From: Eledone cirrhosa
Lineage: Eukaryota
Assembly: GCA_964016885.1 (NCBI GenBank)
Contig: OZ024742.1
Span: 366,792,001-366,856,000 of the forward strand
DNA: 64,000 nt
Reading direction: 5' to 3'
Below the pieces are notes generated by a model, which was not told where the DNA came from, did not search any database, and saw only the letters and a program-made list of their open reading frames with translations. The translations under genes and the position numbers were made by a program. Numbering within the stretch: position 1 is the first letter of the stretch; each line of letters opens with the position of its first letter. Of this stretch, positions 498-62,422 are shown one piece after another.

Positions 498-1230
498 TAT
501 TATTTCAAATAATAAATATTTTGTATGAATTTAATAACATTTTTCAACTTATATATTTTATATGGTCATTCACATCGTCTCTCATTTTATGAAATATATA
601 TGATATAGTTTAATATTGTGTTTCAACATATAACAGATATTTCACAAGGATGTTATATTGGTCATTCAATTTATAATATATATTTTATTATGGTTTTCAT
701 ACTATCTTTCAAGATGTAATAATATTTCGTATGATCTAAATATTGTCTTTCAAAATATAAAATATATATTATTTCAATATCGCTTTTCATCGGAAATATG
801 TTCTATGTGATTTAATATCATTTTTCAATTTATATATTTTATATGGTTCAACACACGATATATATTTTTTAATATGGTTTTAATATGGTTTTTCAACTTA
901 GGATATATTTTATTATGCTCTCTTATCGTTGTCGTGATTCCAGTTTTTAAATTTTATCTTCTTTCTTAATTCCATTTAATTCTTATTTACTTTTGTTACT
1001 GTTGGTATAGTTGTTGTTATTGTTGCTATTGTTGTTATTGTTGTTATTGTTGTTATTGTTGTTATTGTTATTGTTGCTATTCATATGGTTATTGGTATTA
1101 TTATAGTGGCTGTTATATCGATAAATTATTGATTTCTAACACACACCCGTCAAATCTCTAATGAAGCAAGTTTACGAAAAATACTGATAGATGATAGACT
1201 TGTTGCATTATCGATGTTGTTGTTGAATTA

Positions 1231-4062: not shown

Positions 4063-4521
4063 TTGAAACCACTAATGGTTTGTTGTTATTTTACTGTGAC
4101 CTTTACTATTTCTAAAAGCTACATTACATTGTATTGTTGTTGCTGTTGTTGTTGTTACTGTTATTGTTGTTGCAGTTGTTGTTGCTGTTATTGTTGTTGT
4201 TGTTGTTGCCATAGTTAATGGTGTTTGATTTGGATCTGTGTTCTTCTATCTGGCTTTCTGATCTTGGAAGCAAATGAGCGCATGTGATTGCGGGCAATCG
4301 TGCATACGTACATGTGTACGTGTGTCTATATCTGTATATACGCCTGGCTTTATATGTGTGTGTCTGTGTGATCGTGTGTGGATATCTGAGCTCTGTGTAT
4401 GTGTTAGAGAACGTGTGTGTGAACGTGTGGAAGTGCGTGTAGGTTTACATGTGAGCGTACATGTGCCTAGCTGTACATCTGTGTGTGAGTGTTTGTGTGT
4501 GTGTGTGTGGGGGGTGTCTCT

Positions 4522-7369: not shown

Positions 7370-9085
7370 AATTAACTAATAATAATACCTACAATACTAT
7401 CAATAAAGAAGCTAAAGAACTAGCTAGTTCTTTAAAAATAGATAACCAGATTGAAAGCCTAGCTAAGCGTAAAGAATAAATTACCCTTAAAGACCATAAA
7501 TTGGACTTTACTAATCGACCTAGTTGTAGACTAATTAACCTGGCTAAATCCGAGGTTGGCCTTGCAAGTAAAAAAATTTAAGAAACATAATTCTCCAAAT
7601 TAGAACTAACACTGACCTATCACAGTGGCTAAATACTTCCTCTGTTATTTCTTGGTTTAATAATATACAAGGTAAAAATAAATGTAGATTTACCCAATTT
7701 GATATTGTCAATTTTTACCCATCTATTACTGTTTCCTTATTAACTAATGCCTTAGATTTTGCAAGACCCTTCATTAATATTTCTAAATTAGAAGAAGACA
7801 TTATCTTTCATGCTAGAAAAACTTTACTCTTTACTAATGATAATATTTGTGTTAAAAAGTGAAACCCTGAAAACTCTTTAGATGTTGCAATGGGTTCATA
7901 TGAGAGTGCGGATGTGTGTGACTTAGTAGGATTATTCCTTTTCCACACCCTCAAAGAGAAATTTCCGTCCCATAATATCGGTTTATACCGTGATGACGGA
8001 TTAGCAGTTTCTCATACCACCAACGGCCATAACCTTGATAAATTCCGTAAAGATTTAATCAATACTTTTGCTAATCTTAACCTTAAAATCACTATAGATA
8101 CAAACCTTACTAATGCTAACTTTCTTGATATTAATCTTGATCTACTTACCGCCTCTTTTAAACCCTATCATAAACCTAATGAAAATCTTACGTATATACA
8201 CAAAGAGTCTTGCCATCCCCCTATAGTTTTTAATAATCTTATTCCTAACATTAGCCGTAGGATTTCTACCTTATCTTCGTCTATAGACATTTTTAATAAA
8301 GCCGCCCCTTATTATAATAAAGCCCTTAAGAACAGCGGTTTTACAGAAAACAATTCTTATTTACCTACTCCCACCCCCCCTAAAACTAACCACAATAACC
8401 GGAAAAGGAAGATTATTTGGTTCACACCCACCTTCTCTATAACTGTCAAAACTAATGTAGGAAGGAAATTCCTTGAACTATTAGACAAACATGTTCCTCC
8501 TAATCATAGATATTATAAGATATTTAATAGGAACGTAGTTAAGATCAGCTACTCTTGTTGCCCATCTATGAAGTCCAAAATCACCAGTTAAAACCATACG
8601 AGAACAAATCCAGGATGCAGTTGCAGGAAGCCGGATGAATGCCCATTGCAGGGTAAATGTAACACCAAATCTGTTGATTATGAGGCTAAGATAACACCAG
8701 TAATCAACAACCAGCCATCCAGGAGTGAGCGATATGTCAGTATGACCCAGGACAGGTTTAAAAACAGATTTTACTCACATGTCGCTTCTTTTAAGCACTC
8801 CGATAAACGAACATCAACGGCCCTCGCAAGTAAGGTGTGGGAACTCAAGGATAGTAACATCCCGTACTCTATTGATTGGTCTATATTAGACCATTCGAGG
8901 GAGTACCAAAGGGGCACAAAGAATTGTTCTTTGTGCACCACAGAAAAATATAGGATTTTGCTAAACTCGAGAGCCACTTCCGCTTGCCTTAACTCAAAGA
9001 CTGAGATTTCAGATGCTGTCCTCATCTAAAATCGCACCTGATCTGTAACTGGATTGACACTCCTATGATAAATCAACCGCCTTGA
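7370..9085 (+). pseudogene. Penelope/Naiad RT + GIY-YIG endonuclease pseudogene
   Basis: ITLKDHK, FDIVNFYPSI, MGSYESADVCDLVG, GLYRDDGL, CSCRKPDECPLQGKC, FKNRFYSH, CSLCTTEK; several stops and frameshifts. Confidence 0.9.
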
Positions 9086-10955: not shown

Positions 10956-13184
10956 CTACATTTTAAATTTATATTTATATTTAAAAGTTGAGTTCAATCT
11001 ATGTCTGCAGCAACTGAATACATTTGTCCGTAAATTAAGGGAATTTTTAGATTTTAGTATAAAGAATATCTCCTCCGCGCAGAGGTCACATGTCTCAGAG
11101 GATGAATTAAAAGGAATCCCTCTTGAGACTATATTCCAAGCCGTCGAATATCCAACGTTATCATGCTTAAGTTGCCAGAGTAAGCCTGATAGTGATGTTG
11201 AAGATTTTTTGCTTGGATCTGTGAAAGAATACTTGTGGTTATTATAGCGAAGTTTAAATTCTGTCGAGGTGGAACCAACATAGTTAAAAGAATTTAAGTC
11301 CGTTTTAACATTACAGTTGTATATTATATTTTTAACTAAGCAATTGTTATTTAACGGACATTTAGATCTATCTCTACAGTTACATTTGTTTACTTGGATA
11401 TTATTTATGCTATTATCGCTATTTTGGCTAGGTTTTAAATTCCTATTATTTATTCTATTAATATTTTGTGCTAAATTTTTGGTGGATGAGTAAGTTAATT
11501 TTATAGTATGTCTATTGAAAATTGAGTGATACCTATGTGTTCTAGGGAAGCGATTATCAAGAGCATTAAAAAATAGTTTAGCGATGTGGGTTTTAATGTT
11601 TAGTGAGAAAGGGGGGGGGGGGGCAAACCATATTATATTCCTAGTTCTATTTCTTTTTTGGCTTTTGGAATTATTGTAATGCTTTCTATTATAGTTGTTA
11701 AAGTTGTTGCCGTAATTAAAATTGTTGTTATTTTGGTTAGTTTGTCTATTATTATCTATGTACATAATTTTATCACTATATCCTGCTCTAGCTAACGCTT
11801 CATTGTAATACTGGGCCTTTTCGTCGAAAATCTTTTTATTAGATGAGATTCTAGAGATACGTTTTTGAACAGAGTTCACTATAGTATTTTTAACAGATCT
11901 GGAGTGGTTAGAGTTAAAACTGACATAGTTTAAGTTTTCATTCAACTTGTGAAATGGATAGTGAAGACATGTGTTGAGATTTAATGTTACATCTAGGAAA
12001 TAGACTATTCTATGGTTATTCTCAATTTCTATTTTTAGATTAAAGTAATTAAAAAATTGTGTAATTTGTTTTCTTTTTCTATTTAGTTCAGAGTTATTAT
12101 TTTCAATAAGTAAAAGCATGTCATCTCTATATAAACCTCCGGTAGCACCGGGTATTTTCCTATGCAGCGAATTGATTATAAATAGGCCCACAAGGTCAGT
12201 TACCTGAGCTGAGTCGGATGATCCCATAGTAATGTCGAAATTGTTATCTCTATCTGCTCTGGTCCATAGTTGGTCATTAAATTCTATCAATGTTCTCCTA
12301 GCCGATAATATAATGTGCATTTCATTGCTAGTTAGGTCTGTATGTTTGAATGCGTAATTTAGTGCCTTATTTAGTAGATTAGGGGTAATAGATGAATAAT
12401 AGTTAGCAATATCTAGTTGAATAAATTTATTATTATTGTTATATTTAATTTCTTTAAACCACTCAATAACCTCTCCAGTTCCCTTCCACAAGCTCAAGTT
12501 AGGCAAACAATTCAAGGTTTTAATTTGCTGTATCACCCTGTCTAGAATGTTTTTGCTTAGTTTACCCAGGTCAGATTTTGATGGTGCAATCAATCTAACT
12601 GGCAGGTCATTTTCAAAATTTCTTTTGTGATCTTTCATATTGATCTTCGGTTTCCTGGGCACGAAAGGTTGTGTTCTGTTCTCAATTTCCAACTCATGCA
12701 TTATACAAGATGCCTCAACATTCATTTTCTCAAGCTCGGCCTTATCTGCTACCTTGTACTTTTTTCTCAGTTCTTTCAGTATGAGGCCATCATACATATC
12801 TTTTTGCACTCCATAGAGGTTGTTGGTCTTGTCAGATTTCACCAAGATCTTCTCAGTTTTCTCTAAGCTCTCAATATTATCCTTAATGCCTTTCAGATAT
12901 TCCTGGCCTTTGAAGTTTCTCTTGAATTTGACTCCTTGTATGATAGAAATTATATCGTTTTCAAAGTCAAATAAAAGTTTGTTGGGGGGTGGATTTTTTT
13001 TAGATTTGAAAACTTTGTCTAAGTCCGAGACATTTTCATTTATATTAGATTTATCAAAGTGGAATGCACGCCACCTGATTCTCCTTATAAAAGAGTTCGA
13101 TTTATCTATTAATTGTTTAATAAAGTCTTTGTTTCTAGGTAGAGGTATGTCTTTTAAAGAGGAAGAAATCTTAAAGAATTCCAT
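10956..13184 (-). CDS. Penelope-like (Naiad-type) reverse transcriptase + GIY-YIG endonuclease, 742 aa, uninterrupted
   Basis: SLKDIP N-terminus, SDKTNN (DKG-like), LDIANYYSSI, MGSSDSAQVTDLVG, LYRDD, CNCx5Cx5C linker, IIY...YVG, FKLRYNNH, CDLC...CRH. Confidence 0.95.
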   Translation of the reverse strand: MEFFKISSSLKDIPLPRNKDFIKQLIDKSNSFIRRIRWRAFHFDKSNINENVSDLDKVFKSKKNPPPNKLLFDFENDIISIIQGVKFKRNFKGQEYLKGIKDNIESLEKTEKILVKSDKTNNLYGVQKDMYDGLILKELRKKYKVADKAELEKMNVEASCIMHELEIENRTQPFVPRKPKINMKDHKRNFENDLPVRLIAPSKSDLGKLSKNILDRVIQQIKTLNCLPNLSLWKGTGEVIEWFKEIKYNNNNKFIQLDIANYYSSITPNLLNKALNYAFKHTDLTSNEMHIILSARRTLIEFNDQLWTRADRDNNFDITMGSSDSAQVTDLVGLFIINSLHRKIPGATGGLYRDDMLLLIENNNSELNRKRKQITQFFNYFNLKIEIENNHRIVYFLDVTLNLNTCLHYPFHKLNENLNYVSFNSNHSRSVKNTIVNSVQKRISRISSNKKIFDEKAQYYNEALARAGYSDKIMYIDNNRQTNQNNNNFNYGNNFNNYNRKHYNNSKSQKRNRTRNIIWFAPPPPFSLNIKTHIAKLFFNALDNRFPRTHRYHSIFNRHTIKLTYSSTKNLAQNINRINNRNLKPSQNSDNSINNIQVNKCNCRDRSKCPLNNNCLVKNIIYNCNVKTDLNSFNYVGSTSTEFKLRYNNHKYSFTDPSKKSSTSLSGLLWQLKHDNVGYSTAWNIVSRGIPFNSSSETCDLCAEEIFFILKSKNSLNLRTNVFSCCRHRLNSTFKYKYKFKM

Positions 13185-13362
13185 TTTTTCAGTTATAATT
13201 TAAAGCGCTCAACAGTATTGGAGCAAGATATATGCAAAGTTTTATTTAAATTGTTGGGTTACAACGAGTAAATATTTATAACTGATATAAAAGCACTCAA
13301 CAAGTATTTGGAGTATATTTACGATATTAAATAAATGGAAACTATATTTATAAAACCATATT

Positions 13363-48574: not shown

Positions 48575-48883
48575 GTGAGCCAGACTACGGCATCATTTGT
48601 ATGTTTTTGCTCGTGAAAAATTTAGAGAGCACTTTGTCTATATTTCAACGATATCACCTCATAACTAATAGATTTTTCGCAGATCAGTTATATTTTTTAA
48701 TCGATTCTTCAAATCTACGATGGTATTTTCGATAGCTTTGAAAGTAGAAAAATAAAATCTACTGCCCAAACTTGTGCAGATTTGGCTGGCGTCCTAGAAG
48801 GTTGCATTTCAAAGATTTCTCCGGTTTGAAAGATGGGGGCATCAGTCTTACAATGAAAAGCAACGTGTAATAAAGAATCTTGT

Positions 48884-51738
48884 TCAGGAACCCACAACCA
48901 ACCATCAAGCCCAGAAACGCACCACCTACCATCCAGCCCAGGAACCCACAACTTACCATCCAGCCCAGAAACGCACCACCTACCATCCAACCCAGAAACC
49001 CACCACCTACCATCCAACCCAGAAACCCACCACCTACCGTCCACCCCAGAAACCCACCACCTACCATCCAGCCCAGAAACCCACCACCTACCGTCCAACC
49101 GAGAAACCCACCACCTACCGTCCAACCCAGAAACCCACCACCTACCGTCCACCCCAGAAACCCACCACCTACCGTCCACCCCAGGAACCCACCACCTACC
49201 TTCCAACCCACAAACACACCACCTACCGTCCAACCCAGAAACCCACCACCTACCTTCCAACCCAGAAACCCACCACCTACCATCCAACCCAGAAACCCAC
49301 CACCTACCTTCCACCCCAGAAACCCACCACCTACCGTCCAACCCAGGAACCCACCACCTACAGTCCAACCCAGGAACCCACCACCTACCTTCCACCCCAG
49401 AAACCCACCACCTACCGTCCAACCCAGGAACCCACCACCTACAGTCCAACCCAGAAACCCACCACCTACCTTCCAACCCAGAAACCCACCACCTACCTTC
49501 CACCCCAGAAACCCACCACCTATCTTCCAACCCACAAACACACCACCTACCGTCCAACCCAGAAACCCACCACCTACAATCCAACCCAGGAACCCACCAC
49601 CTACCGTCCAACCCAGGAACCCACCACCTACCATCCAACCCAGAAACCCACCACCTACCTTCCAACCCAGAAACCCACCACCTACCTTCCAACCCAGAAA
49701 CCCACCACCTACCATCCAACCCAGAAACCCACCACCTACCTTCCACCCCAGAAACCCACCACCTACCGTCCAACCCAGGAACCCACCACCTACCGTCCAA
49801 CCCAGGAACCCACCACCTACAGTCCAACCCAGGAACCCACCACCTACCTTCCACCCCAGAAACCCACCACCTACCATCCAACCCAGGAACCCACCACCTA
49901 CCTTCCACCCCAGAAACCCACCACCTACCGTCCAACCCAGGAACCCACCACCTACAGTCCAACCCAGAAACCCACCACCTACCTTCCAACCCAGAAACCC
50001 ACCACCTACCTTCCAACCCACAAACACACCACCTACCGTCCAACCCAGAAACCCACCACCTACCGTCCAACCCAGGAACCCACCACCTACCGTCCAACCC
50101 AGAAACCCACCACCTACCATCCAGCCCAGAAACCCACCACCTACCTTCCAACCCAGAAACCCACCACCTACCGTCCAACCCAGGAACCCACCACCTACCT
50201 TCCAACCCAGAAACACACCACCTACCGTCCAACCCAGGAACCCACCACCTACCGTCCACCCCAGAAACCCACCACCTACCTTCCAACCCAGAAACCCACC
50301 ACCTACCGTCCAACCCAGGAACCCACCACCTACCATCCAGCCCAGAAACCCACCACCTACCGTCCACCCCAGAAACCCACCACCTACCGTCCAACCCAGA
50401 AACCCACCACCTACCGTCCAACCCAGGAACCCACCACCTACCGTCCAGCCCAGGAACCCACCACCTACCGTCCAACCCAGAAACCCACCACCTACCTTCC
50501 AACCCAGGAACCCACCACCTACCTTCCAACCCAGAAACCCACCACCTACCGTCCAACCCAGGAACCCACCACCTACCATCCAACCCAGAAACCCACCACC
50601 TACCGTCCAACCCAGGAACCCACCACCTACCTTCCAACCCAGAAACCCACCACCTACCGTCCAACCCAGGAACCCACCACCTACCATCCACCCCAGAAAC
50701 CCACCACCTACCGTCCAACCCAGGAACCCACCACCTACCATCCAACCCAGAAACCCACCACCTACCGTCTAACCCAGGAACCCACCACCTACCATCCAGC
50801 CCAGGAACCCACCACCCTACCATCCAACCCAGAAACCCACCACCTACCGTCCAGCCCAGGAACCCACCACCTACCGTCCACCCCAGAAACCCACCACCTA
50901 CCGTCCAGCCCAGGAACCCACCACCTACCGTCCACCCCAGAAACCCACCACCTACCGTCCAACCCAGGAACCCACCACCTACCATCCACCCCAGAAACCC
51001 ACCACCTACCGTCCAACCCAGGAACCCACCACCTACCATCCACCCCAGAAACCCACCACCTACCATCCAACCCAGGAACCCACCACCTACCGTCCAGCCC
51101 AGGAACCCACCACCTACCTTCCAACCCAGGAACCCACCACCTACCATCCACCCCAGAAACCCACCACCTACCATCCAACCCAGGAACCCACCACCTACCG
51201 TCCAGCCCAGGAACCCACCACCTACCGTCCAACCCAGGAACCCACCACCTACCGTCCAGCCCAGGAACCCACCACCCTACCGTCCAGCCCAGGAACCCAC
51301 CACCTACCGTCCAGCCCAGGAACCCACCACCTACCATCCACCCCAGGAACCCACCACCCTACCGTCCAGCCCAGGAACCCACCACCTACCGTCCAGCCCA
51401 GGAACCCACCACCTACCGTCCACCCCAGGAACCCACCACCCTACCGTCCAGCCCAGGAACCCACCACCTACCGTCCAGCCCAGGAACCCACCACCTACCA
51501 TCCACCCCAGGAACCCACCACCCTAGCGTCCAGCCCAGGAACCCACCACCTACCATCCAGCCCAGAAACCCACACCCTACCGTCCAGCCCAGGAACCCAC
51601 CACCTACCGTCCAACCCAGGAACCCACCACCTACCGTCCAACCCAGGAACCCACCACCCTACCGTCCAACCCAGGAACCCACCACCTACCATCCAGCCCA
51701 GAAACCCACACCCTACCGTCCAGCCCAGGAACCCACCA
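48884..51738. repeat. 27-bp minisatellite, roughly 100 units
   Basis: CCCAGAAACCCACCACCTACCGTCCAA; 28-bp indel variants beyond 50800. Confidence 0.95.
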
Positions 51739-52426
51739 TCATGTCATAGTCCAACATTCTAAACACTTGGCAACGGTTTTACTTTTTGATTGCTTTGCTT
51801 CTAAGAGTGTGTATACATGTGCGTGTACATGTTTGTATACATGAGTGTATACATGTGTGTATACATGAGTGTATACATGAGTGTATACATGTGTGTATAC
51901 ATGAGTGTATACATGTGTGTATACATGAGTGTATACATGAGTGTATACATGTGCGTATATACATGTGTGAATATACGTGAGTTCTCAAGTGCATCCATGT
52001 ACATGTGGGTGTGTGTGAAGGTGAGAGAGTATGTGGTTGTATGCGCTTCTGTTTGAAAACGTGTGTACATCCAAATGTGTATGTATGCGTGTGTTTGCAA
52101 ATGTGTGAATGTACCTTGATCGCATGTGTGTGTGTGTGGAAGCTTCTATGGATGTACGTGTGTTGCATGTATATCAACATATGTCCATATACAGACCAAA
52201 TTCTCTGCTACTCTCAAAGAAATTGATCTCGTGTTCTAATCGCTAGAAATTGTTTTAGCCAGTCAACTCATTTTGTCGTCTGCTTTCAACCTTTTCGTTG
52301 CTAATAACCTTAACATGAATAAGCCTACCTTCACAGGATATTTCTCCAGACAACTACTACACATAAGACCGTTTTAAATCTTTTAATAAATTCCATCTCA
52401 CGGTATTTTCACAGCACATACATGAT

Positions 52427-52465
<39 letters not shown>

Positions 52466-55400
52466 TATTTCTTTTATTTGCCACTAGGGCATCAAAAGTG
52501 GGACAAGTACAAAGGGGGGAGTTTACACAAAAAGGCGTCCTCAATAAGGAGGAGGCAATAACAAAATATAAAAATAAAATAAGATATAACAAAAAATAAA
52601 ATTTTTAACAAAATCCTCAATAGAGAGGAGGCGCCTTGGGGGGTCGCACACACCCCCGAAAAAAGTGTGCAACCCTTCTCCTCAGGAGCACAGAGAAGGG
52701 GTGCTCCCTTGGTCTTTCATCTTCCTCACCTATAGTCTGATGTAGAGTGAAGGCCCATTCACACGGGCCATTCTCGCCACTTTCACCCATCTTTCATAGA
52801 AACGGCTGGGGTGCAGCACCTCTCTCTCCATCCTGATCCTTCTTCCGAAATGATATCGGAAGAAACGGACCAGTTGTTGGCCAGAGAGAAAGGTGCCCGA
52901 CCTCAGTCCTTTCAGACGCGTCCACCATACAACCTCTTTCGCCATGGCTATTACGCACAGAAACACCGCCTCTGCTTCATCTTTGAAGGGGGGAGGCGGC
53001 TTGATCATTACAATAGACTCGGTGGTCAACCGGATCGGTCCCACCCTTGACAGCAGTTGTTCGACATAGCCCCACAGATCGGCTACGCCCGAGCAGTGTA
53101 CTAATGCGTGTGCAACGGTTTCCTCGTCGCACACGCATCTGGGACAGATCTTTTTGGCGGGGTCCCTACCCGGGCGCCCGTGTCTGTAGAGCCTTTCTCG
53201 AACGGGTAAAGCCCCTCGGTAGCACTGCCAGGCCAGGGACTTCTGGAAGTTGTCCATAGGTCCCGGGCTGAATGTCCTACCGAACAGGCTGGCCAGTTCG
53301 TCCTCCTCCATGTCTAGGGCTTCTCCGAGGGCGTCGTCGCACCTGCTGCGTACCAGCCCTCTATAGAATGTTGCGGTGGAGTCTCCACTGATAACCGGAT
53401 CCGCCTGCCAGAGGGTGGTGAGCGCCTGGGCACACTCAGTGTGCCAGGCGCCCAGTTTTCTCGGTCTTTGCTTGACCCAGGATTGCAGCTCGGTGAGTGA
53501 GACGAGTCTGGGAAAGGTTCGTCTCACAAACGAGGCCCACACCGGTTGTCCGGTGAGGAATACGTAGAGGTGCCGTAGCCTTAATGCGTGTTTACGCATC
53601 ATTAGCCACGGCATCCCCAGCCCTCCTTTCGAAGGGTGTTGACAGCAGATGGATCTCCTCACCATAGGAGCCCGCCTCTTCCAAAGGAATTGGAAGAGCG
53701 CGCGCTCCATCTTGGTGAGGGTTTCCCTTGGGCAGGGCACTACGGTCAGGCGGTAGTAGATGACGGACGCTATGTAGGTGTTCGCCACCTCCGCCCGGCC
53801 TTTCAGGGATAGTTTGCAACTGGCCCACTTCTGGGTCAGTGCAAACACCCTGTTCGTAACCTCCGCCCAGTTTTTCTCCACCTGGAGGTCCGGTCCGAAC
53901 CAGACCCCGAGCAACTTCACCGGGCCCTCCGTCCAGCGTCCGACGACGCTATCGGAGGGCATCGGTCTGCCCCTCCACGTGCCGAGTTGCAAACCGATCG
54001 ACTTGTCCCGGTTCAGCTTAGCCCCTGTGAACTTTTCGTACTCCTCCAGTAAGGTGCCGACCGCCTCGATTTCGGAGGCCGTCGACACCATTACTGTCAC
54101 GTCATCGGCGTAGGCCGACACCGCTTTCCGCAATCCCGGTTCCAAAGGGATGCCCTGCAACAACTCCAACTTCCGCAGTAGTGGCTCGAGAGTCAACACA
54201 TACAGAAGGGAGGAGAGAGGGCACCCTTGTCGGATGGACCGCGCGATTTTGAACGGCTCCGAGAGGTAGCCGTTCACCTTGACCCTAGAGCAGATGCGGC
54301 TGCTGTGCATAGCAGTGATCCAGCCCCTGAAAACGGGTCCGAAGCCTGCCGCCGCTAGCACCGCATCCAGGTAACCATGGTCGACCCTATCGAACGCCTT
54401 AGATTGATCCAAGTTGATCAGAGCCCCACCAAAGCCGGGTTCGTTCCCAACCCTCTCTATGATGTATCGCATGAGGTGGAGGTTGTCATGGATGGACCTG
54501 GACGGGATAGCGCATGTCTGCGCATCTCCCACCAGGTTGCCCACGACAAGCGCCAACCTCTTTGCTAGCACCTTGGCCAAAATCTGTAACTCTGTATTTA
54601 GCAGTGTTATGGGCCTGAAGTTACTTATTTCGTCCCCCTTGTTCTCGTCCTTCCTCACTAGCGTGACTACGCCCTTGGTCACAGTACAGGGAATTCTCCC
54701 GTTCTGTTGCCAGTTGCAGTAGACCGCCTCGAGGAGATCGGGGAACAAGTCCGGCATAGCTAGATATAATTCGTAAGGAAGACCATCGAGACCCGGGGAT
54801 TTGCGTTTGCCGCATTGGCTCAGCACGTCCTCTATCTCAGCGGCCGAAATCGGCTCTTCGCAGGACTTCGCCTCCCTGTCCGAGAGGCGCGGCAGGCCGT
54901 CGAGGTATGGACCGAAGTCCACGTTCCCAACCGGCTCCCCGCCCCTCCCGAACAGTCGGGCAAAGTGCCTTTGAAAGGCCTCACACATCTGCTTAGGCTC
55001 AAGAATCGCCCGTCCATCCAGGTCTCGCAAAGACCGGATGGTGGATTTAGTTCCACTGTTGGCCTCTGTCACGCGGGCCCAGCTAACAGCTTTGGTCCCC
55101 TCGTTCCCTAGAGCACGTATTTTACTTCGGACAACGCAGCCTTCGTGCTTCGCGTCGAAAAACTGGCTCAAAGCCGTTCTCGACGCTAGCACTCTGGCCA
55201 CGTCGCCGCTTCTAATTGCCTCTTCTACTCTATCTATTAGCTCCCTTTCCTTCCTATTCCTATCCGCAGCTAGAACCTTACTAAATTCTATCGAGACTAC
55301 TCTAATCTCTCTCTTTAGAGATACCCACCACCTGCTGTTGACGATCGCTCCAGTCAACCGTTCCTTAACTAACGTACTAATCCGATTCCTGTAGGCTCTA

Positions 55401-56654
55401 CTTGCCGGCAAGGACAAGTTGAGCTTCCAGTAACCGGGGCCCTGTCTATGAGTTCTGTCAAGGTTGACCATGCAGGTCACTAATTTGTGGTCTGAATAGC
55501 CAACAATGCGCATTTTTGGACAACTTAAAAAGTCCTTATCCTTAATTCTAACTAAGAACCTATCTAGGTACGACCTAGATGATCCGCTACGATTTGCCCA
55601 AGTCCAGGTTGGCGCAGTCGGAAAATCTAGTCGATATCTATCGGCCAGGTCAAATCGACCGATTAACCCTTTGAGGCTATTACACCCCTCTCTATCGGGG
55701 CAGGCCCCTACGTAGTCCCAGCGTGCATCTAGGATACCATTCCAGTCCCCCACTAATAGCAAGGAGCGGGACGTCCCTAGAAAAGTCTCCAGACGATGGA
55801 AGAAGTCCGGCCGCATTGACCCGAAAGGGCCGTAGGCGGCTACCAACCTAAACGCTCCGCCTTTACCACTGCCAAGGTCCAGAACCACTAGTCGACCCTC
55901 CGGGTCCAAATGTACCATCTGTGTTGCGAGACCCAGATGTTTTTGCAGCAGAACGACAACTCCACCCCCACCTCCGGGCTGACAGAGAGATGCGTGCATC
56001 TCAAAGTCATCAAAGGTGGGGGCCAGCTGTCGCACGTTGCTGATCCGGGCCTCGCAAATAACCATCACATCTATACGTTGTGACCTGAGGTCATTTAGAA
56101 GCATTGCTTGCTTCCAAGTTGAGCCCAGGCCACGCGCATTTAAACAGCCTACTCTTAGCATAGCCATGTTGGTGGTGAAGAGAAAAGGCACTTACCTCTC
56201 TGCGTCCCGGGTATCGGGCTGCACAATTTCCATTAGGGTGGGGGATGGGTTGTTGGGTGGGGTGGTGGTTTGTGGAAGTGTGGGGGCATCAGTGTGTTGT
56301 GTGGTTGGGGAGCTTGGAGTTGTGAGGGTGTTTGGGGAGGGGGTGGGATAGTTTTTTAGGAGGACGCGGTTAATGGGCCCGACGCAGGGGGGACCCACGT
56401 CCTCTTTAAAATTGTTTTTTAAAGTTTTATAGGTGTCCTGTGGGGCCTTAATCATTTTGAGGTGGGGGAAATCCCCTGCCTGGGTGAAGTTAGGCCCTTG
56501 TGTTTTTATTAGATTGTTGTTGTACACAATGTTTAACAGTTTTTTGTTTCTTGTATTTATGTATGTGTATGCATGTTTTTGTTTTTGTGTGGTGTTTTTT
56601 GTTTGCTGTTGTGAGCTCTTTTGTGTTGGTGTCAGTATTATGTTTTGGGGAGGG
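52466..56654 (-). mobile_element. Tx1/L1-clade LINE B, 5'-truncated within ORF1
   Basis: ORF1 remnant 56192-56654, intact ORF2, about 260-nt 3' UTR with AATAAA; (GATA)n on both sides (52428-52465, 56655-56680). Confidence 0.92.
52730..56167 (-). CDS. LINE ORF2: APE endonuclease + reverse transcriptase + C-terminal zinc finger (1145 aa from ATG 56167)
   Basis: LNARG, GDWN, YLDRF, SDH, WKLN, SPGLDG, FRPITLLN, DQSKAFDRV, QGCPLS, YADD, CPRC...ETVAHALVHC. Confidence 0.95.
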   Translation of the reverse strand: MAMLRVGCLNARGLGSTWKQAMLLNDLRSQRIDVMVICEARISNVRQLAPTFDDFEMHASLCQPGGGGGVVVLLQKHLGLATQMVHLDPEGRLVVLDLGSGKGGAFRLVAAYGPFGSMRPDFFHRLETFLGTSRSLLLVGDWNGILDARWDYVGACPDREGCNSLKGLIGRFDLADRYRLDFPTAPTWTWANRSGSSRSYLDRFLVRIKDKDFLSCPKMRIVGYSDHKLVTCMVNLDRTHRQGPGYWKLNLSLPASRAYRNRISTLVKERLTGAIVNSRWWVSLKREIRVVSIEFSKVLAADRNRKERELIDRVEEAIRSGDVARVLASRTALSQFFDAKHEGCVVRSKIRALGNEGTKAVSWARVTEANSGTKSTIRSLRDLDGRAILEPKQMCEAFQRHFARLFGRGGEPVGNVDFGPYLDGLPRLSDREAKSCEEPISAAEIEDVLSQCGKRKSPGLDGLPYELYLAMPDLFPDLLEAVYCNWQQNGRIPCTVTKGVVTLVRKDENKGDEISNFRPITLLNTELQILAKVLAKRLALVVGNLVGDAQTCAIPSRSIHDNLHLMRYIIERVGNEPGFGGALINLDQSKAFDRVDHGYLDAVLAAAGFGPVFRGWITAMHSSRICSRVKVNGYLSEPFKIARSIRQGCPLSSLLYVLTLEPLLRKLELLQGIPLEPGLRKAVSAYADDVTVMVSTASEIEAVGTLLEEYEKFTGAKLNRDKSIGLQLGTWRGRPMPSDSVVGRWTEGPVKLLGVWFGPDLQVEKNWAEVTNRVFALTQKWASCKLSLKGRAEVANTYIASVIYYRLTVVPCPRETLTKMERALFQFLWKRRAPMVRRSICCQHPSKGGLGMPWLMMRKHALRLRHLYVFLTGQPVWASFVRRTFPRLVSLTELQSWVKQRPRKLGAWHTECAQALTTLWQADPVISGDSTATFYRGLVRSRCDDALGEALDMEEDELASLFGRTFSPGPMDNFQKSLAWQCYRGALPVRERLYRHGRPGRDPAKKICPRCVCDEETVAHALVHCSGVADLWGYVEQLLSRVGPIRLTTESIVMIKPPPPFKDEAEAVFLCVIAMAKEVVWWTRLKGLRSGTFLSGQQLVRFFRYHFGRRIRMEREVLHPSRFYERWVKVARMARVNGPSLYIRL

Positions 56655-56912
56655 TAGATAGATAGATAGATAGATAGATAAATTTCTATTTATTTGCCAC
56701 GAGGGCACAAAAGAAGGGGACATTTACACAGTGGGGGAGTTTACATAAATCGAGTAAAGAAAAAAGGAATAACAATAATAATATAACAATAAAAAGTCCT
56801 CAAAAGGGAGGGGGCGTGTTGGGGATTGCACATACCCCCGAAAAGTGTGCAACTCTTTTCGCGGGGGAAGCCCAGAGAGGAGGCGCTCCCCCTTTCCTCT
56901 TCACTTCTTCAC

Positions 56913-59900
56913 CTACAGAACAATGTAGAGAGAAGGCCCATTTACACGGGCCATTCTCGCTTCTTTCACCCACCTTTCATAAAACTGTCTGGGACCAAGC
57001 ACTTCTCTCTCCATCCTGATTCTTCTTCCGAAGTGGTATCGGAAGAAGTAAACCAGGTGATGGCCGGAGAGAAAGTCACCCGACCTTAGACCTTTCAGGC
57101 GCGTCCACCAAACAACCTCTTTCATCATGGCTATTACGCACAGAAAGACCGCCTCTGCTTCATTTCTGAAGGGAGGAGGCGGCTTGATGTTCACCACAGA
57201 CTCGGCGGTTAATCGAATCGGCGCCACACGCGACAGCAGTCGTTCGACGTAGCCCCACAGATCGGCAACGCCCGGGCAGTGTACCAGTGCATGCGCAACG
57301 GTTTCCTCGTCGCGCACGCATCTGGGACAGATCTTTTTCGCGGGATCCCTGCCCGGGCGCCCGTGTCTGTAGAGCTTTTCTCGAACGGGCAGAGCCCCCC
57401 GGTAACACTGCCAGGCTAGGGACCTCTGGAAGTTGTCCATGGGTCCCGGGCCGAAAGTTCTACCGAACAGGCTGGCCAGTTCGTCTTCCTCCATGCCTAG
57501 CGACTCTCCAAGGGTGTCGTCGCCCCTGCTAGCCACCAACCCTCTATAGAATGTCGAGGTGGATTCTCCACTGACAGTCGGGTCCGCTTGCCAGATAGCC
57601 GTGAGCGCCTGGGCACACTCGGTGTGCCAGTTGCCCAGTTTTCTCGGTCTTTGCTTCACCCAGGATTGCAGTTCGGTGAGCGAGACGAGCTGTGGGAAGG
57701 CTCGCCTCACAAACGGGGCCTACACCGGCTGACCGTTGAGGAATACCTGTAGATGCCGTAGCCTCAATGCGTGCCTACGCATCAACAGCCACGGCATACC
57801 CAGCCCTCCTTTCGAAGGGTGCTGGCAGCAGATGGATCTCCTCACCATGGGAGGCCGCTTCTTCCAGAGGAACTGGAAGAGCATGCGTTCCATGATGGTG
57901 AGCTTTTCCTTGGGGCAAGGCACGACGGTCAGGCGGTAGTAGATGACGGACGCTATGTAAGCGTTCGTCACCTCCGCCCGACCTTTCAGTGATAGTTTGC
58001 ACTTGGCCCACTTCTGGGTCAGCGCAAACACCCTGCTCGTCACCTCGCCCCAATTCTTCTCCACCTGGAGGTCCGGTCCGAACCAGACCCCGAGCAGCTT
58101 CACCGGGCCCTCCGTCCACCGCCCGACGACACCGTCTAACGGCATCGGTTTGCCCCTCCACGTTCCGAGTTGCAAACCGACTGACTTGTCCTGGTTCAGC
58201 TTAGCCCCCGTCAGCCTTTCGTATTCCTCCAGTAGGGTGGCGGTCGCCCCGATTTCCGAGGCGTCCGCCACCATTACTGTTACGTCGTCGGCATAGGCCG
58301 AGACCGCTTTGTGCAATCCCGGTTCCAGGGGTATGCCCCGCAGCAACTCCAACTTCCGCAGCAGTGGCTCGAGAGTCAATACGTACAGAAGGGAGGAGAG
58401 GGGGCACCCCTGTCTGATGGATCGGGTGATTTGAAACGGCTCCGAGAGGTAGCCGTTTACTTTAATCCTAGAGTAGATGTTGCCACTGTGCATGGCAGAA
58501 ATCCAGCCCCTGAAAACGGGTCCGAAGCCCGCCGCCGCTAGCACCGCATCCAGGTAACCATGGTCGACCCTATCGAACGCCTTAGATTGATCCAAGTTGA
58601 TCAGGGCCCCACCAAAGCCGGGTTCGTAGCCAACCCTCTCTATGATGTATCGCATGAGGTGGAGGTTGTCGTGAATGGACCTGGACGGGATAGCGCATGT
58701 CTGCGCGTCTCCCACCAAACCACCCACCACAAGCGCCAACCTCTTCGCCAACACCTTGGCCAAAATCTGTAACTCTGCATTCAGCAGAGTTATGGGCCTA
58801 AAGTTACTTAAGTCGTCCCCCTTGCTCTCGTCCTTCCTCACTAGCGTGACCACGCCCTTGGTCACAGAACAGGGAATTCTCCCGTTCTGTTGCCAGTTGC
58901 AATAGACAGCCTCGAGGAGTTCGGAGAACAAGACCGGCATAGCTAAATAAAGTTCGTATGGTAGACCATCGAGACCCGGGGATTTGCGTCTGCTGCATTG
59001 GCTGAACGCTTCCCCGATTTCAGTGGCTGTGATTGGCCTTTCGCAGCACTCCGCTTCGCCGCTCGAAAGACGCGGTAGACCGTCGAGGTATGGACCGAAG
59101 TCCACATCCCCGTCCGGCCCCCCGCCACCTCCGAACAGTCGAGCAAAGTGCCTTTGAAAGGTCTCGCACATTCGCTCAGGTTCAAGGATCACCCGTCCAT
59201 CCTGGTCTCGCAAAGACCGAATGGTGGATTTAATCCCACTCTTGGCTTCTGTCACGCGGGCCCAGCTAACAGCTTTGGTCCCCTCGTTTCCTAAAGCACG
59301 TATTTTACTTCGGACAACGCAGCCTTCGTGCTTCGCGTCAAAGAACTGGCTCAATGCCGTTCTCATCGCTAACACTCTGGCTACGTCTCCGCTCCTAATC
59401 GCCTCTTCTAGTTTATCTGTTAACTCCCTTTCCCTCCTATTTCTATTCGCCGCTAGTTCCTTACTGTAACCTATCGAACTTACTCTAATCTCTCTCTTTA
59501 GAGATATCCACCACCTACTGTTGACGATCGCTCCCGTCAACCGCATCTTAACTAAGCTACTAATCCGGTTTCTGTAATCTTTCTTTGTCGGTAAGGACAA
59601 GTTCATCTTCCAGTAACCGGGGCCCTGTCTATGCGTTCTATCAAGGTTGACCACGCAGGTCACTAATTTGTGATCTGAATAGCCAACCATGATCAGTTCT
59701 GGACAACTAAATACGTCCCTATCCTTACTCCTAACCAAAAACCTATCTAGGTACGATCTAGATTGTCCACTGCGGTTTGCCCAGGTCCAGGTTGGCGCAG
59801 TTGGACAATCTAGTCGAAATCTATCGACCAGGTCGAATCGATCGAGTAACCCCTTGAGGCTGCTACACCCCCCTCTATCGGGACATGCCCCTGCATAGTC

Positions 59901-60354
59901 CCAACGCGCATCTAGGATTCCATTCCAGTCCCCCACTAAAAGCAGGGAACGTGACGTTCCTAGAAAAGTCTCCAGACGCTGGAAGAAGTCGGCTCTTTCC
60001 GCCCCGAAGGGAGCATAAAGACCGACCAGTCTGAAAGCCCCGCCTTCACCGCCTCCGACGTCCAGCACCAGTAATCGACCCCCCGGGTCCGAGTGAACAA
60101 TCTGTACGTCGAGAGTCAGACGTTTATCCAGCAGTACGGCAACTCCCCCCCCCCCCGCCTCCGGGTTGACAGAGAGATGCGTGCATCTCAAAGTCATCGA
60201 AGGCGGGCGCCAGCTGTCTCACGCTGCTGATCCGACTCTCGCAAACAACCATCACATCTATACTTTGTGACCTGAGGTCACTTAGAAGCTTTGCTTGCTT
60301 CCAAGCTGAGCCCAGGCCACGCGCGTTCAAACAGCCAACTCTCAATTGATCTAT
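56913..60354 (-). pseudogene. ORF2 of LINE A, disrupted
   Basis: Colinear with ORF2 of LINE B; frameshift in the C-run at about 60145-60156, TAG at 57720 where B has Trp, ATA where B has ATG. Confidence 0.9.
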
Positions 60355-62186
60355 TTTGGTGTTGAAAGTGAAGAAAGAAAAGCACTTACCTCTCCGGGTT
60401 GCGTAATTTCCATGGCATCAGGTGTGTTGGGTGGAGGGATGTTTTGTGGTGGTGTGGGGGTACACGTGTGTGGTGGGGTTGGGGTATTTGGAGTTGTGTC
60501 AGGGAGAGGGGCGGTTATGGGGAAATCTTTCAAGAGGACGCGATTCAACGGTTTTAAACAGGGGGGGCTCACGTCCCGTCTAAATTGTTCTTTTAAGGAA
60601 CGATAAAGGTCCAGAGGGACCTTTATCATTTTTAAATGGGTGAAGTTCTCTGTTGAGATAAAGTTTGGCCCTTCGGTCTGCACCATAGGGTTATTGTTTA
60701 TTAATTTAACCAGTTTTTTGTTTTCTTTATTTATATATGTGTATTGCAACGTCTTTTTTTGTGATGCTGTCAATGTTTCGGAGAGGGGAGGCGCAGATTT
60801 ATTTTTGTTTGTTGAGGGTGGGGTGTTTTTGATTGGAGTTGGTGTTTGTGTGTGGGTTATTTGTGGTGTGCTGGGTGTGTGTTTTCTTTTTTTTCTTTTA
60901 ACTTGTCTGAAGGCTTCTCCTCCTTCTTCTTCAGAAGTTGGGGGAAACTCTTCAGCGCTAGGTGGGAGGGACGTGTTGTGTGGTTGTTTTTTTTTTGCGG
61001 GAGGGGTAGATTTGTTACTGTTTTTTTTATTATTTGTTTGGAATGGGTTTTGTGGTGGTGGTGGTGGTAATGTTTGTGTCGTGCTTGTGGTTGGTGATGG
61101 TGGTGGTGATGTTTGTGTTGTGGTTGGTGGTGGTGATTTTTGTGTCGTGCTTGTGTTTGGTGCTGGTGGTGGTGATGTTTGTGTTGTGTTTGTGGTTGGT
61201 GGTGTCTGTATTTTGTTTGCTGTGTGTGGTATTAGTGTATTTTTGGAGGTGGGTGGTGCTGGTGTACTGTTTGTGGTGGGTGTGGGCAATAGTCCTTTTT
61301 GGGGGATACGTTTCGGGCAGTTAGCCTTAACGTGTCCCCTTTCCATGCATAAATAGCATGCTGGTCTTCTCCCCTCTACAATTATGTCTATTGGGGTAAG
61401 GTCATCCAGCCAGATGCGATCCGGGATTTGTGCTATTCTTTCGGGCCTCATTTGGACTAGTATGTCGAGGCCCATTCCCAGGAACGCATCTCCAGTTGCC
61501 TTCCCCATTGACAGCATAGTGTCTTCGCCCATATCAATGAAGCCAGCAATAGCCCACCAGAAGTCCATTGTGGGCAGCATTGTTTTTACTTTTACTCTCT
61601 GTGTTCTTCTACCCATGTAGGAGGGATAGAAGCTATATGTTGTCGACGAGAGTGGGCTTAGGGAAAGCTTCTCCGCCGTTTCTTTGTCTCTTGTTAGGAC
61701 CGAAATGCTGCCATAGAGTCGGTCCTTTCGTATGAAGAGAATATTCTTCATATAGTCTTTTAGAACTAACTCTATTTCCATTTGGCTGGGCTGTGCTGGC
61801 TTTCTTGTCTGGTTCAGTATAGTTCTGTATAGAACTGTGTTTTCTGCTCTGGCTTTCTTGAATTCTGGGGGGGAGTTAATGGAAAACATTCCGTTCTCCC
61901 CCAAAACAATATGTTTCTTTGCTTCGGCCAGTTTTTCTCTGGCGGCAGTTAGGTCAATTGGTGTGTATGTAATGGATTGTTTTGTTTTCTGGGCGAAAGT
62001 TGCCCTGTCGTTATTTGTATTATTTTCTGTTTGTTTGTTTTCTGTTTGCTCATTTTCCTTAACATTTGTTTTTTCATTTTGTTTGTTTGTTTCAATGTCT
62101 AATTTTGTTGTAATTATTTTTTGTTCTTCAGACTTGGGGGGCGTGGCAGAGCTAATGGCAGACATGTCTGCCATCTTTTCCGCCAT
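60351..62186 (-). CDS. LINE ORF1 gag-like protein with CCHC zinc knuckle and Pro/Thr-rich region (611 aa from ATG 62186)
   Basis: EGRRPACYLCMERGHVKANC (CX2CX4HX4C); C-terminus homologous to the ORF1 remnant at 56192-56527. Confidence 0.9.
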   Translation of the reverse strand: MAEKMADMSAISSATPPKSEEQKIITTKLDIETNKQNEKTNVKENEQTENKQTENNTNNDRATFAQKTKQSITYTPIDLTAAREKLAEAKKHIVLGENGMFSINSPPEFKKARAENTVLYRTILNQTRKPAQPSQMEIELVLKDYMKNILFIRKDRLYGSISVLTRDKETAEKLSLSPLSSTTYSFYPSYMGRRTQRVKVKTMLPTMDFWWAIAGFIDMGEDTMLSMGKATGDAFLGMGLDILVQMRPERIAQIPDRIWLDDLTPIDIIVEGRRPACYLCMERGHVKANCPKRIPQKGLLPTPTTNSTPAPPTSKNTLIPHTANKIQTPPTTNTTQTSPPPAPNTSTTQKSPPPTTTQTSPPPSPTTSTTQTLPPPPPQNPFQTNNKKNSNKSTPPAKKKQPHNTSLPPSAEEFPPTSEEEGGEAFRQVKRKKRKHTPSTPQITHTQTPTPIKNTPPSTNKNKSAPPLSETLTASQKKTLQYTYINKENKKLVKLINNNPMVQTEGPNFISTENFTHLKMIKVPLDLYRSLKEQFRRDVSPPCLKPLNRVLLKDFPITAPLPDTTPNTPTPPHTCTPTPPQNIPPPNTPDAMEITQPGEVSAFLSSLSTPK

Positions 62187-62387
62187 GCTGCCAAGAAAGA
62201 AATTTTTCGGCAAAAATAGATATTTATTTTACCCCCTAAAAAGGGGGTAAATGCAAAAATGTTTCCCTAAATAACAGGGGTTAGTGTTCCAAATGTGTTG
62301 CACTAAAAGATTTATCCGGTACTTACAATAGTAAGGGTAAATCCCGATGGAATAGCGGAGCCGATGCGAAGCGTGTCTTACTCTATC

Positions 62388-62422
<35 letters not shown>

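What the first reader, a model, noticed from the sequence alone, without database searches (positions are those of the whole stretch)
52730..60389. ORF2 of both Tx1-like LINEs is framed like an intron: GTAAGT donor at ORF1 end, acceptor at the ORF2 stop codon
Seen: on the sense (minus) strand both diverged elements keep GAG|GTAAGTGC at the end of ORF1 (A 60389, B 56195), although the surrounding ORF1 tail and frame differ. Both ORF2s end at an acceptor-like site: A CCTTCTCTCTACATTGTTCTGTAG|G (56913) and B CCTTCACTCTACATCAGACTATAG|G (52730, alternative CAG 7 nt upstream). Purine-rich, enhancer-like sequence follows (GTGAAGAAGTGAAGAGG / GTGAGGAAGATGAAAG). Splicing would remove 3477 nt (A) or 3466 nt (B), and ORF1 would then stop within 1-3 codons (..PGE-VKK*; ..AE-R*). 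Known: copia-type LTR elements make a spliced gag subgenomic RNA. Inference: a non-LTR element makes an ORF1-only mRNA that keeps the 3' UTR, tuning ORF1p:ORF2p ratio and possibly spawning ORF2-less non-autonomous copies. I do not recall this being described for Tx1/L1.
Basis: partly seen in the sequence, partly recalled or inferred. Interest (0 to 1): 0.85.

Follow-up and report, generated by a model that had tools for sequence, protein, structure and literature searches.

The report
Conserved splice donor at LINE ORF1-stop
A family of microsatellite-targeting LINE retrotransposons keeps a textbook splice-donor motif at the end of its first gene in all 13 lineages examined, likely to recruit the U1 splicing particle and protect the full-length RNA, whereas removal of the second gene as an intron left no spliced copy in the four subfamilies searched and is untested at the RNA level.

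Summary
The coordinates and motifs are as reported. The donor is real. G|GTAAGT, G|GTAGGT or G|GTGAGT lies at the ORF1 end in all 13 lineages sampled, in three reading phases, while only 4 of 26 neighbouring four-fold sites are invariant.

The acceptor half is weaker. It is the best-scoring AG of 261 in A, rank 16 of 263 in B, poor in deeper lineages, and absent where ORF2 ends in TAA. No ORF2-less processed copy was found: 0 against 813 B and 376 A ORF1 tails, and against 2,792 B and 4,711 E unspliced 3' ends. No RNA reads were examined.

Best reading (0.45): a U1-binding site that guards the unspliced bicistronic RNA, like the Arabidopsis Copia element EVD's donor. ORF2-as-intron stays a live rival (0.3), mainly in the (ATCT)n-targeting group. 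Novelty: new variant of a known kind.

The parts
56681..62389 (-). LINE copy A, full length, flanked by (ATCT)n; ORF2 inactivated in this copy
   Evidence: at least 376 copies carry its ORF1 tail
62321..62326 (-). 5'-UTR donor hexamer GTAAGT of A, about 63 nt from the 5' end
   Evidence: sequence; such a hexamer lies in the first 100 nt of 9 of 11 elements, 0.93 expected
62188..62250 (-). Acceptor-like sites in A's 5' UTR (TAG ending 62236; CAG ending 62188, just before the ORF1 AUG)
   Evidence: sequence; best 5'-UTR AG ranks 1 of 372 in copy L136; no genomic copy joins the 5' donor to the ORF1 AUG
60351..62186 (-). ORF1 of A, 611 aa, CCHC knuckle, A-rich
   Evidence: no Pfam hit; knuckle read from the translation
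60384..60389 (-). ORF1-end donor of A (phase 0, 12 codons before the stop)
60355..60383 (-). Pyrimidine-rich tract after the donor
   Evidence: pyrimidine fraction 0.75-0.90 in 12 of 12 elements against 0.45-0.46 in ORF2
60351..60354 (-). ATA in place of the ORF2 AUG, overlapping ORF1's TAG
   Evidence: no AUG in 30 of 30 A loci
56913..60354 (-). ORF2 of A (endonuclease-RT-zinc finger), frameshift near 60150 and stop at 57720 in this copy
   Evidence: intact in copy L136
56913..56936 (-). Acceptor-like site ending in ORF2's TAG in A
   Evidence: rank 1 of 261 AGs
56681..56912 (-). 3' UTR of A with AATAAA at 56689-56694
56655..56680 (-). (ATCT)n target repeat between A and B
52468..56654 (-). 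LINE copy B, 5'-truncated in ORF1, ORF2 intact
   Evidence: 813 copies carry its ORF1 tail
56190..56195 (-). ORF1-end donor of B (phase 2, contains ORF1's TAA)
52730..56167 (-). ORF2 of B, 1145 aa: Exo_endo_phos, RVT_1, zf-RVT
52730..52753 (-). Acceptor-like sites at B's ORF2 stop (TAG ending 52730; CAG ending 52737)
   Evidence: ranks 16 and 5 of 263 AGs
52468..52729 (-). 3' UTR of B with AATAAA at 52473-52478
   Evidence: 40 of 40 scored genomic hits are identical over 421 nt

Best explanation
The ORF1-end motif is a conserved splice-donor sequence that likely binds U1 snRNP on the full-length bicistronic RNA mostly without being spliced, and is predicted to suppress premature cleavage at the AATAAA hexamers of the A-rich ORF1 and to stabilise this intronless RNA so that ORF2 is transcribed.

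Shown: the motif's conservation independent of reading frame; a second such motif near most 5' ends; scarcity of the motif inside both ORFs; and the absence of spliced copies in four subfamilies.

Inferred: U1 binding; the effect on 3'-end formation; and that the site sits on the ORF1 stop because the short inter-ORF spacer is the only coding-free place and the donor hexamers contain stop codons. A minor ORF2-removing splice in some lineages is compatible with this.
For: Donor in 13 of 13 lineages; phases 0 (A), 1 (three lineages) and 2 (nine); variants are only GTAAGT, GTAGGT and GTGAGT. Neutral yardstick: 4 of 26 four-fold sites invariant, third-position identity 42-92%. The hexamer lies in the first 100 nt of 9 of 11 elements, 0.93 expected, in about 5 groups of unalignable 5' UTRs. 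In ORF bodies it is rare: 1 against 4.3 expected in ORF1 and 9 against 32.7 in ORF2 (the expectation ignores the frame that stop codons forbid). A poly(A)-signal hexamer lies within 350 nt upstream of the donor in 9 of 10 elements, none within 600 nt downstream. The donor outlives the acceptor: TAA-ending elements keep the donor. No processed copies. Precedent: the conserved U1 site of Arabidopsis Copia EVD represses premature termination (PMC5580714, passages).
Against: No RNA data were examined, so neither U1 binding nor lack of splicing is shown. The poly(A) hexamers lie upstream of the ORF1-end donor, whereas U1 usually protects downstream sites (the upstream case is known from HIV-1; recalled, not checked). 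They may also be by-products of Asn/Lys codons. Two of 11 elements lack the 5' hexamer. In A the best AG of 372 lies in the 5' UTR and the second best at the ORF2 stop, as a spliced mRNA would need. Missing processed copies are also expected if ORF2-less RNA is poorly mobilised in trans (cis preference, PMC5860796 passages). EVD's U1 site does splice as well.
Confidence: 0.45

Rival explanations
1. One reading: the donor splices to an AG at or near the ORF2 stop and yields an ORF1-only mRNA with the 3' UTR, possibly also losing a 5'-UTR intron. The product is translated but seldom retrotransposed because it lacks ORF2p in cis.
For: The stop-region AG ranks 1-9 of about 260 in 8 of 9 (ATCT)n-group lineages (A, B, C, F127, F128, F131, E1, E2; F132 ranks 16). 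A stop follows within 3 codons in the donor's own phase in 8 of 11 lineages, including all three phase-shifted ones tested. The advance prediction that the family whose 3' UTR begins GTTGA has a phase-1 donor held for its young subfamily E1 (4 loci). TAA-ending elements have their top-ranked AG inside the 3' UTR, 3 of 3.
Against: 0 spliced copies against 2,792 B and 4,711 E unspliced 3' ends, although a spliced copy needs only about 270 nt of reverse transcription; also 0 for A and C. The stop-phase match is not significant (13 of 33 cells have a near stop; permutation p=0.11, ignoring phylogeny). The older subfamily E2 has a phase-2 donor and would read 32 codons through. Acceptor scores are low, and Pro-Ser-Leu-Tyr codons and U-rich UTRs give such sites anyway. 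Ranks are 17-31 in the (ATT)n lineages that keep TAG. ORF1-plus-3'-end derivatives can be mobilised well in trans in another L1-type element (TRE5-A.2, PMC3159450 passages).
Confidence: 0.3
2. The motif has nothing to do with U1. It is a stop-codon context or reinitiation signal (G-stop-GT, pyrimidine tract, Kozak AUG) for ORF2 translation, and the 5' hexamer is a promoter element.
For: In 9 of 13 lineages the hexamer contains ORF1's stop, and its three variants are the three stop codons. ORF2's stop usually sits in the same hexamer, GTAGGT. A pyrimidine tract follows in 12 of 12 elements. Termination-reinitiation is described for L1 and SART1 (PMC5972666 passages).
Against: In 4 lineages the stop has moved off the motif and the motif is intact. 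Within A it has switched between GTAAGT and GTAGGT out of stop frame.
Confidence: 0.12
3. The 39-61-nt spacer is a mini-intron whose removal fuses ORF1 to ORF2.
For: In phase-2 lineages the first AG after the tract is also phase 2 and would restore an Arg codon in frame.
Against: No in-frame AG among the first three in A. The lengths are very short for a spliceosomal intron (general knowledge). RNA that makes ORF2p should be copied in cis, yet no such copy exists in A, B or C (designed to catch this junction).
Confidence: 0.05
4. Shared ancestry and chance: the motif is inherited and not selected.
For: A and B alone share several equally long identical blocks near the donor. A 7-mer of this kind is expected about once per element.
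Against: Invariance across lineages with 42-56% third-position identity and three frame shifts.
Confidence: 0.05

Closest known systems
Arabidopsis Ty1/Copia EVD shGAG system (PMC5580714; passages read)
   Same: A conserved U1 site at the end of the structural-protein region that both represses premature termination and allows a subgenomic mRNA for the structural protein.
   Different: EVD is an LTR element with one GAG-POL frame and a short intron whose splicing is coupled to early termination. Here the element is a bicistronic non-LTR element, splicing is unproven, and the proposed intron would be all of ORF2.
Human L1 splice sites and SpIREs (PMC5860796; passages read)
   Same: An L1-type element with donors and premature poly(A) signals in its RNA.
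   Different: L1's spliced forms retrotranspose (SpIRE97/622 is about 1.8% of full-length insertions) and are judged detrimental. The passages seen name intra-5'UTR and 5'UTR/ORF1 events, not a donor at the ORF1 stop. No spliced copy was found here.
ORF2-less non-autonomous LINE derivatives: TRE5-A.2 (PMC3159450 passages) and HAL1 (seen only as cited in PMC4494074, and in a search listing)
   Different: They are described as internal-deletion derivatives, and no such derivative was found for A, B, C or E.
HIV-1 donors acting through U1 without splicing (recalled from memory; not checked in any call)
   Same: A donor that blocks an upstream poly(A) site or stabilises the RNA in front of a downstream cistron.
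   Different: A retrovirus with Rev-dependent export; nothing comparable was tested here.
Tx1-clade target-specific LINEs (label recalled; L1-Tx1 families are listed as recently active in Octopus vulgaris, PMC13282606 passages)
   Same: Two ORFs, CCHC ORF1, endonuclease-RT-zinc-finger ORF2, insertion into repeats.
   Different: Clade placement was not tested by a tree, and no splice signal is mentioned in the passages read.

Membership tests
L1/Tx1-type non-LTR retrotransposon | ORF2 with N-terminal APE-type endonuclease, RT and C-terminal zinc finger | tested here: met
   PF03372, PF00078, and PF13966 just below its curated cut-off; Atlas neighbours have the same set
L1/Tx1-type non-LTR retrotransposon | Separate ORF1, no LTRs, 5'-truncated copies | tested here: met
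Tx1 clade | Insertion into a specific repeat target | tested here: met
   (ATCT)n or (ATT)n flanks by lineage
Tx1 clade | RT phylogeny groups with named Tx1 elements | not testable with these tools
   No named Tx1 reference came from any call; only 2 homologs were returned, one named, from Argonauta hians
Copia-type subgenomic spliced mRNA system | Conserved U1-type donor at the end of the structural ORF | tested here: met
   13 of 13 lineages
Copia-type subgenomic spliced mRNA system | Conserved acceptor | tested here: not met
   Absent at the stop in TAA-ending lineages and weak in others
Copia-type subgenomic spliced mRNA system | Stop codon shortly after the junction | tested here: inconclusive
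   8 of 11 lineages, permutation p=0.11
Copia-type subgenomic spliced mRNA system | Spliced RNA observed | not tested
   No reads were examined
SpIRE / HAL1-like ORF2-less copies | Genomic copies that join ORF1 to the 3' UTR | tested here: not met
   0 in A, B, C and E; the two (ATT)n-flanked groups were not searched

The most novel reading that the evidence does not exclude
These LINEs are built like a three-exon host gene (leader, ORF1, 3' UTR with AATAAA) with the whole of ORF2 as its intron. They make a spliced ORF1-only mRNA beside the unspliced genomic RNA, the first non-LTR counterpart of Copia's subgenomic gag mRNA, and strict cis preference keeps the spliced form out of the genome.
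Probability: 0.3. Interest if true: 0.78.

Novelty: new variant of a known kind. Interest (0 to 1): 0.52.

Why it matters
LINE RNA must stay unspliced and full length to be copied, so splice signals in it are usually treated as liabilities. A donor kept through three frame shifts, and again near mostly unrelated 5' UTRs, points to selection for the motif. Either the element uses U1 to get through its own A-rich ORF1, or it sets the ORF1p:ORF2p ratio by splicing. Both bear on how LINEs produce full-length RNA and an excess of ORF1p, and one RT-PCR or long-read experiment separates them. Family A, with hundreds of copies and no ORF2 AUG, is also a natural case of AUG-independent ORF2 initiation.

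Tried and rejected
No RNA holder listed among public runs for this stretch; no reads were laid on it, so splicing was not tested at the RNA level.

Protein searches with A's ORF1 C-terminal part, meant to find database proteins with a spliced C-terminus, returned nothing at E<=0.001 (116 and 8 candidates).

Processed-copy searches were negative for A, B, C and E and for loss of A's 5'-UTR segment. They are exact-match patterns, so diverged copies are missed. catch the named junctions fully but only about half of arbitrary junctions. The 3 hits are small deletions after an intact donor. Copy numbers for C and for A's 5' end were not counted, and the two (ATT)n-flanked groups were not searched.

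Two internal ORF2 deletions inspected (L187, L190) have short microhomology and not GT-AG ends. No acceptor column scores high in all 14 aligned elements.

An 'Arg-stop' protein constraint as sole cause of the donor was rejected: four lineages are out of that frame. The AG-GT at the ORF2 stop as a conserved donor was rejected: positions +3 to +6 vary freely.

Two look-ups of earlier scan findings returned nothing. Supplementary files of the papers were not consulted; they could hold relevant splice-site lists.
Full report
What is there. On the minus strand the window holds two tandem LINE copies in an (ATCT)n repeat. A (62389-56681) is full length, with a 611-aa ORF1 and an ORF2 broken by a frameshift and an internal stop. 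B (56654-52468) is 5'-truncated, with an intact 1145-aa ORF2 carrying endonuclease, RT and zinc-finger domains. The only named homolog is from Argonauta hians, 57% identical over the C-terminal 296 aa, so the host is likely an octopod (inference). The Tx1 label rests on anatomy and repeat targeting; no tree with named references was made. The group is large and young: 4,007 ORF2 N-termini match one pattern, 813 and 376 copies carry the exact ORF1 tails of B and A, and 40 of 40 scored hits to B's 3' end are identical.

Observation. All coordinates, motifs and span lengths are as stated.

The donor is under selection. In 11 subfamily representatives the ORF1 end carries G|GTAAGT or G|GTAGGT, while third-position identity in the adjacent endonuclease region is 42-92% and 4 of 26 four-fold sites are invariant. 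Two further lineages, E1 and E2, carry G|GTGAGT. Of 101 element records with both ORF2 ends, 99 have the motif and 2 are single-base mutants. That sample is skewed by 60 best-hit loci; tandem loci can count twice; and 3 records were dropped from the table because no stop pattern was found. The motif lies in phase 2 (Arg-stop) in nine lineages, phase 1 in three and phase 0 in A, so no single codon constraint explains it. A pyrimidine tract follows it in 12 of 12 elements.

The same hexamers occur 22-83 nt from the 5' end in 9 of 11 elements, 0.93 expected from composition. These UTRs are not all independent: blastn links L125/L184, L132/L138 and L121/L128/L139, leaving about five groups with the motif and two elements without it. 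Inside ORF1 and ORF2 the hexamers are rare (1 against 4.3 and 9 against 32.7; the expectation is inflated because stop codons forbid one frame). In A the 5' UTR looks like a short intron, and its best AG ranks 1 of 372 in the element, but no genomic copy joins the 5' donor to the ORF1 AUG.

The acceptor is weaker. Scores use an approximate acceptor matrix recalled from memory. The AG of the ORF2 stop ranks 1 of 261 in A and 16 of 263 in B (5 for the CAG 7 nt upstream). The better of the two sites ranks 1-9 in 8 of 9 (ATCT)n-group lineages and 16 in F132. In (ATT)n-flanked lineages that keep TAG it ranks 17-31. In 64 of the 96 tabulated records (skewed sample) ORF2 ends in TAA with no AG, yet the donor is intact; in 3 of 3 of these inspected the top-ranked AG lies 158-177 nt into the U-rich 3' UTR. 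The last ORF2 codons (Pro-Ser-Leu-Tyr) are pyrimidine-rich by nature, and a poly-Pro-Phe stretch 200-280 nt earlier gives an AG ranked 1-4 in 13 of 15 elements, so high ranks arise from coding sequence too.

Does a splice restore ORF1's stop? In 8 of 11 lineages with an AG at the stop, a stop follows within 3 codons in the donor's own phase, including the three phase-shifted ones tested. But 13 of 33 cells have a near stop, and shuffling phases gives p=0.11 without regard to phylogeny. I predicted beforehand (note) that the family whose UTR begins GTTGA would have a phase-1 donor. This held for young E1 (4 loci) and failed for older E2 (2 loci, one with a mutated donor). F132 and one rare, probably recombinant type would also read through. 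The result is suggestive only.

No processed copies. Patterns joining the ORF1 tail to the 3' UTR gave 0 for B, A and E. Patterns for any departure from the native spacer gave 3 small deletions with intact donor for B, and 0 for A and C. Unspliced 3' ends number 2,792 for B and 4,711 for E, so for B the spliced share of insertions is below about 0.1% (3/2792 rule). Human spliced L1 copies reach about 1.8% for one class that still encodes both proteins (PMC5860796, passages), and an ORF1-plus-3'-end derivative of Dictyostelium TRE5-A is mobilised well in trans (PMC3159450, passages). Strict cis preference could still hide an ORF2-less RNA. The two (ATT)n-flanked groups were not searched, and no RNA reads were examined.

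Mechanism. Shown: a frame-independent donor motif at the ORF1 end and near most 5' ends, scarce elsewhere, outliving the acceptor, with no spliced copies in four subfamilies. Inferred (0.45): U1 binds these sites on RNA that stays unspliced and suppresses cleavage at poly(A) hexamers of the A-rich ORF1; 9 of 10 elements have one within 350 nt upstream of the donor. The motif would sit on the stop because the spacer is the only coding-free stretch and each donor hexamer contains a stop codon. Rivals are the ORF1-only spliced mRNA (0.3, not exclusive of the first), a translation signal (0.12), a fusion mini-intron (0.05) and chance (0.05).

Comparison. It works most like the U1 site of Arabidopsis Copia EVD, which both blocks premature termination and yields a subgenomic gag mRNA (PMC5580714, passages). 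It is not shown to be such a system, because the acceptor is not conserved and no spliced RNA was seen. Splice and poly(A) signals are known in human L1. U1-dependent protection in HIV-1 and splice sites in zebrafish LINEs are recalled, not checked (one search found no paper for the latter). Literature searches for a conserved ORF1-end donor in a non-LTR element (one search returned 0 papers; listings and abstract openings only) showed no such report. The library lacks most subscription papers and Repbase reports, and supplements were not read. The Octopus vulgaris repeat paper lists active L1-Tx1 families and has no occurrence of 'splic' (PMC13282606, passages).

Verdict. The feature is real and better than chance at the donor, and unproven as an ORF2 intron. 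New variant of a known kind; interest 0.52.

Noticed in passing
window 60351-60354 (-); loci L061-L090: Family A has no ORF2 AUG: ATA sits in the Kozak position and overlaps ORF1's TAG (no AUG in 30 of 30 loci). ORF2 is intact in copy L136, with 216 synonymous and 173 non-synonymous codon differences from B. Likely AUG-independent termination-reinitiation (cf. PMC5972666 passages).
   Followed up: partly
window 62321-62326 and 62188-62250 (-); 5' ends of L121-L185: Donor hexamer near the 5' end of mostly unrelated 5' UTRs, followed by U-rich sequence; intron-like 5' UTR in A.
   Followed up: partly
L124, L125, L174-L185 against L126-L139: Two target groups in one lineage, (ATT)n-flanked and (ATCT)n-flanked, forming mixed tandem arrays; several elements look recombinant between 5' and 3' types (L123, L174, L177).
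   Followed up: no
L121:200-700, L122: Family C is preceded by a tandem repeat of about 69 nt instead of a microsatellite; it may be a target or a 5' monomer array.
   Followed up: no
window about 60143-60157 (-); L061-L090: A long G run near the start of A's ORF2; in about half of 30 loci the ORF2 match breaks at this point, from slippage or assembly error.
   Followed up: no
window 52473-52478 and 56689-56694 (-): A canonical AATAAA lies about 5-10 nt before the 3' end, with no poly(A) tail; the element ends in target repeats.
   Followed up: no
window 10956-13199 (-) and 7863-8591 (+): RT-like ORFs whose C-terminal motif looks like a GIY-YIG nuclease, probably Penelope-like elements (read from the translation; not tested).
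   Followed up: no
window 1133-4115, 23109-24160, 48715-51762: Large minisatellite and simple-repeat arrays that give spurious long ORFs.
   Followed up: no
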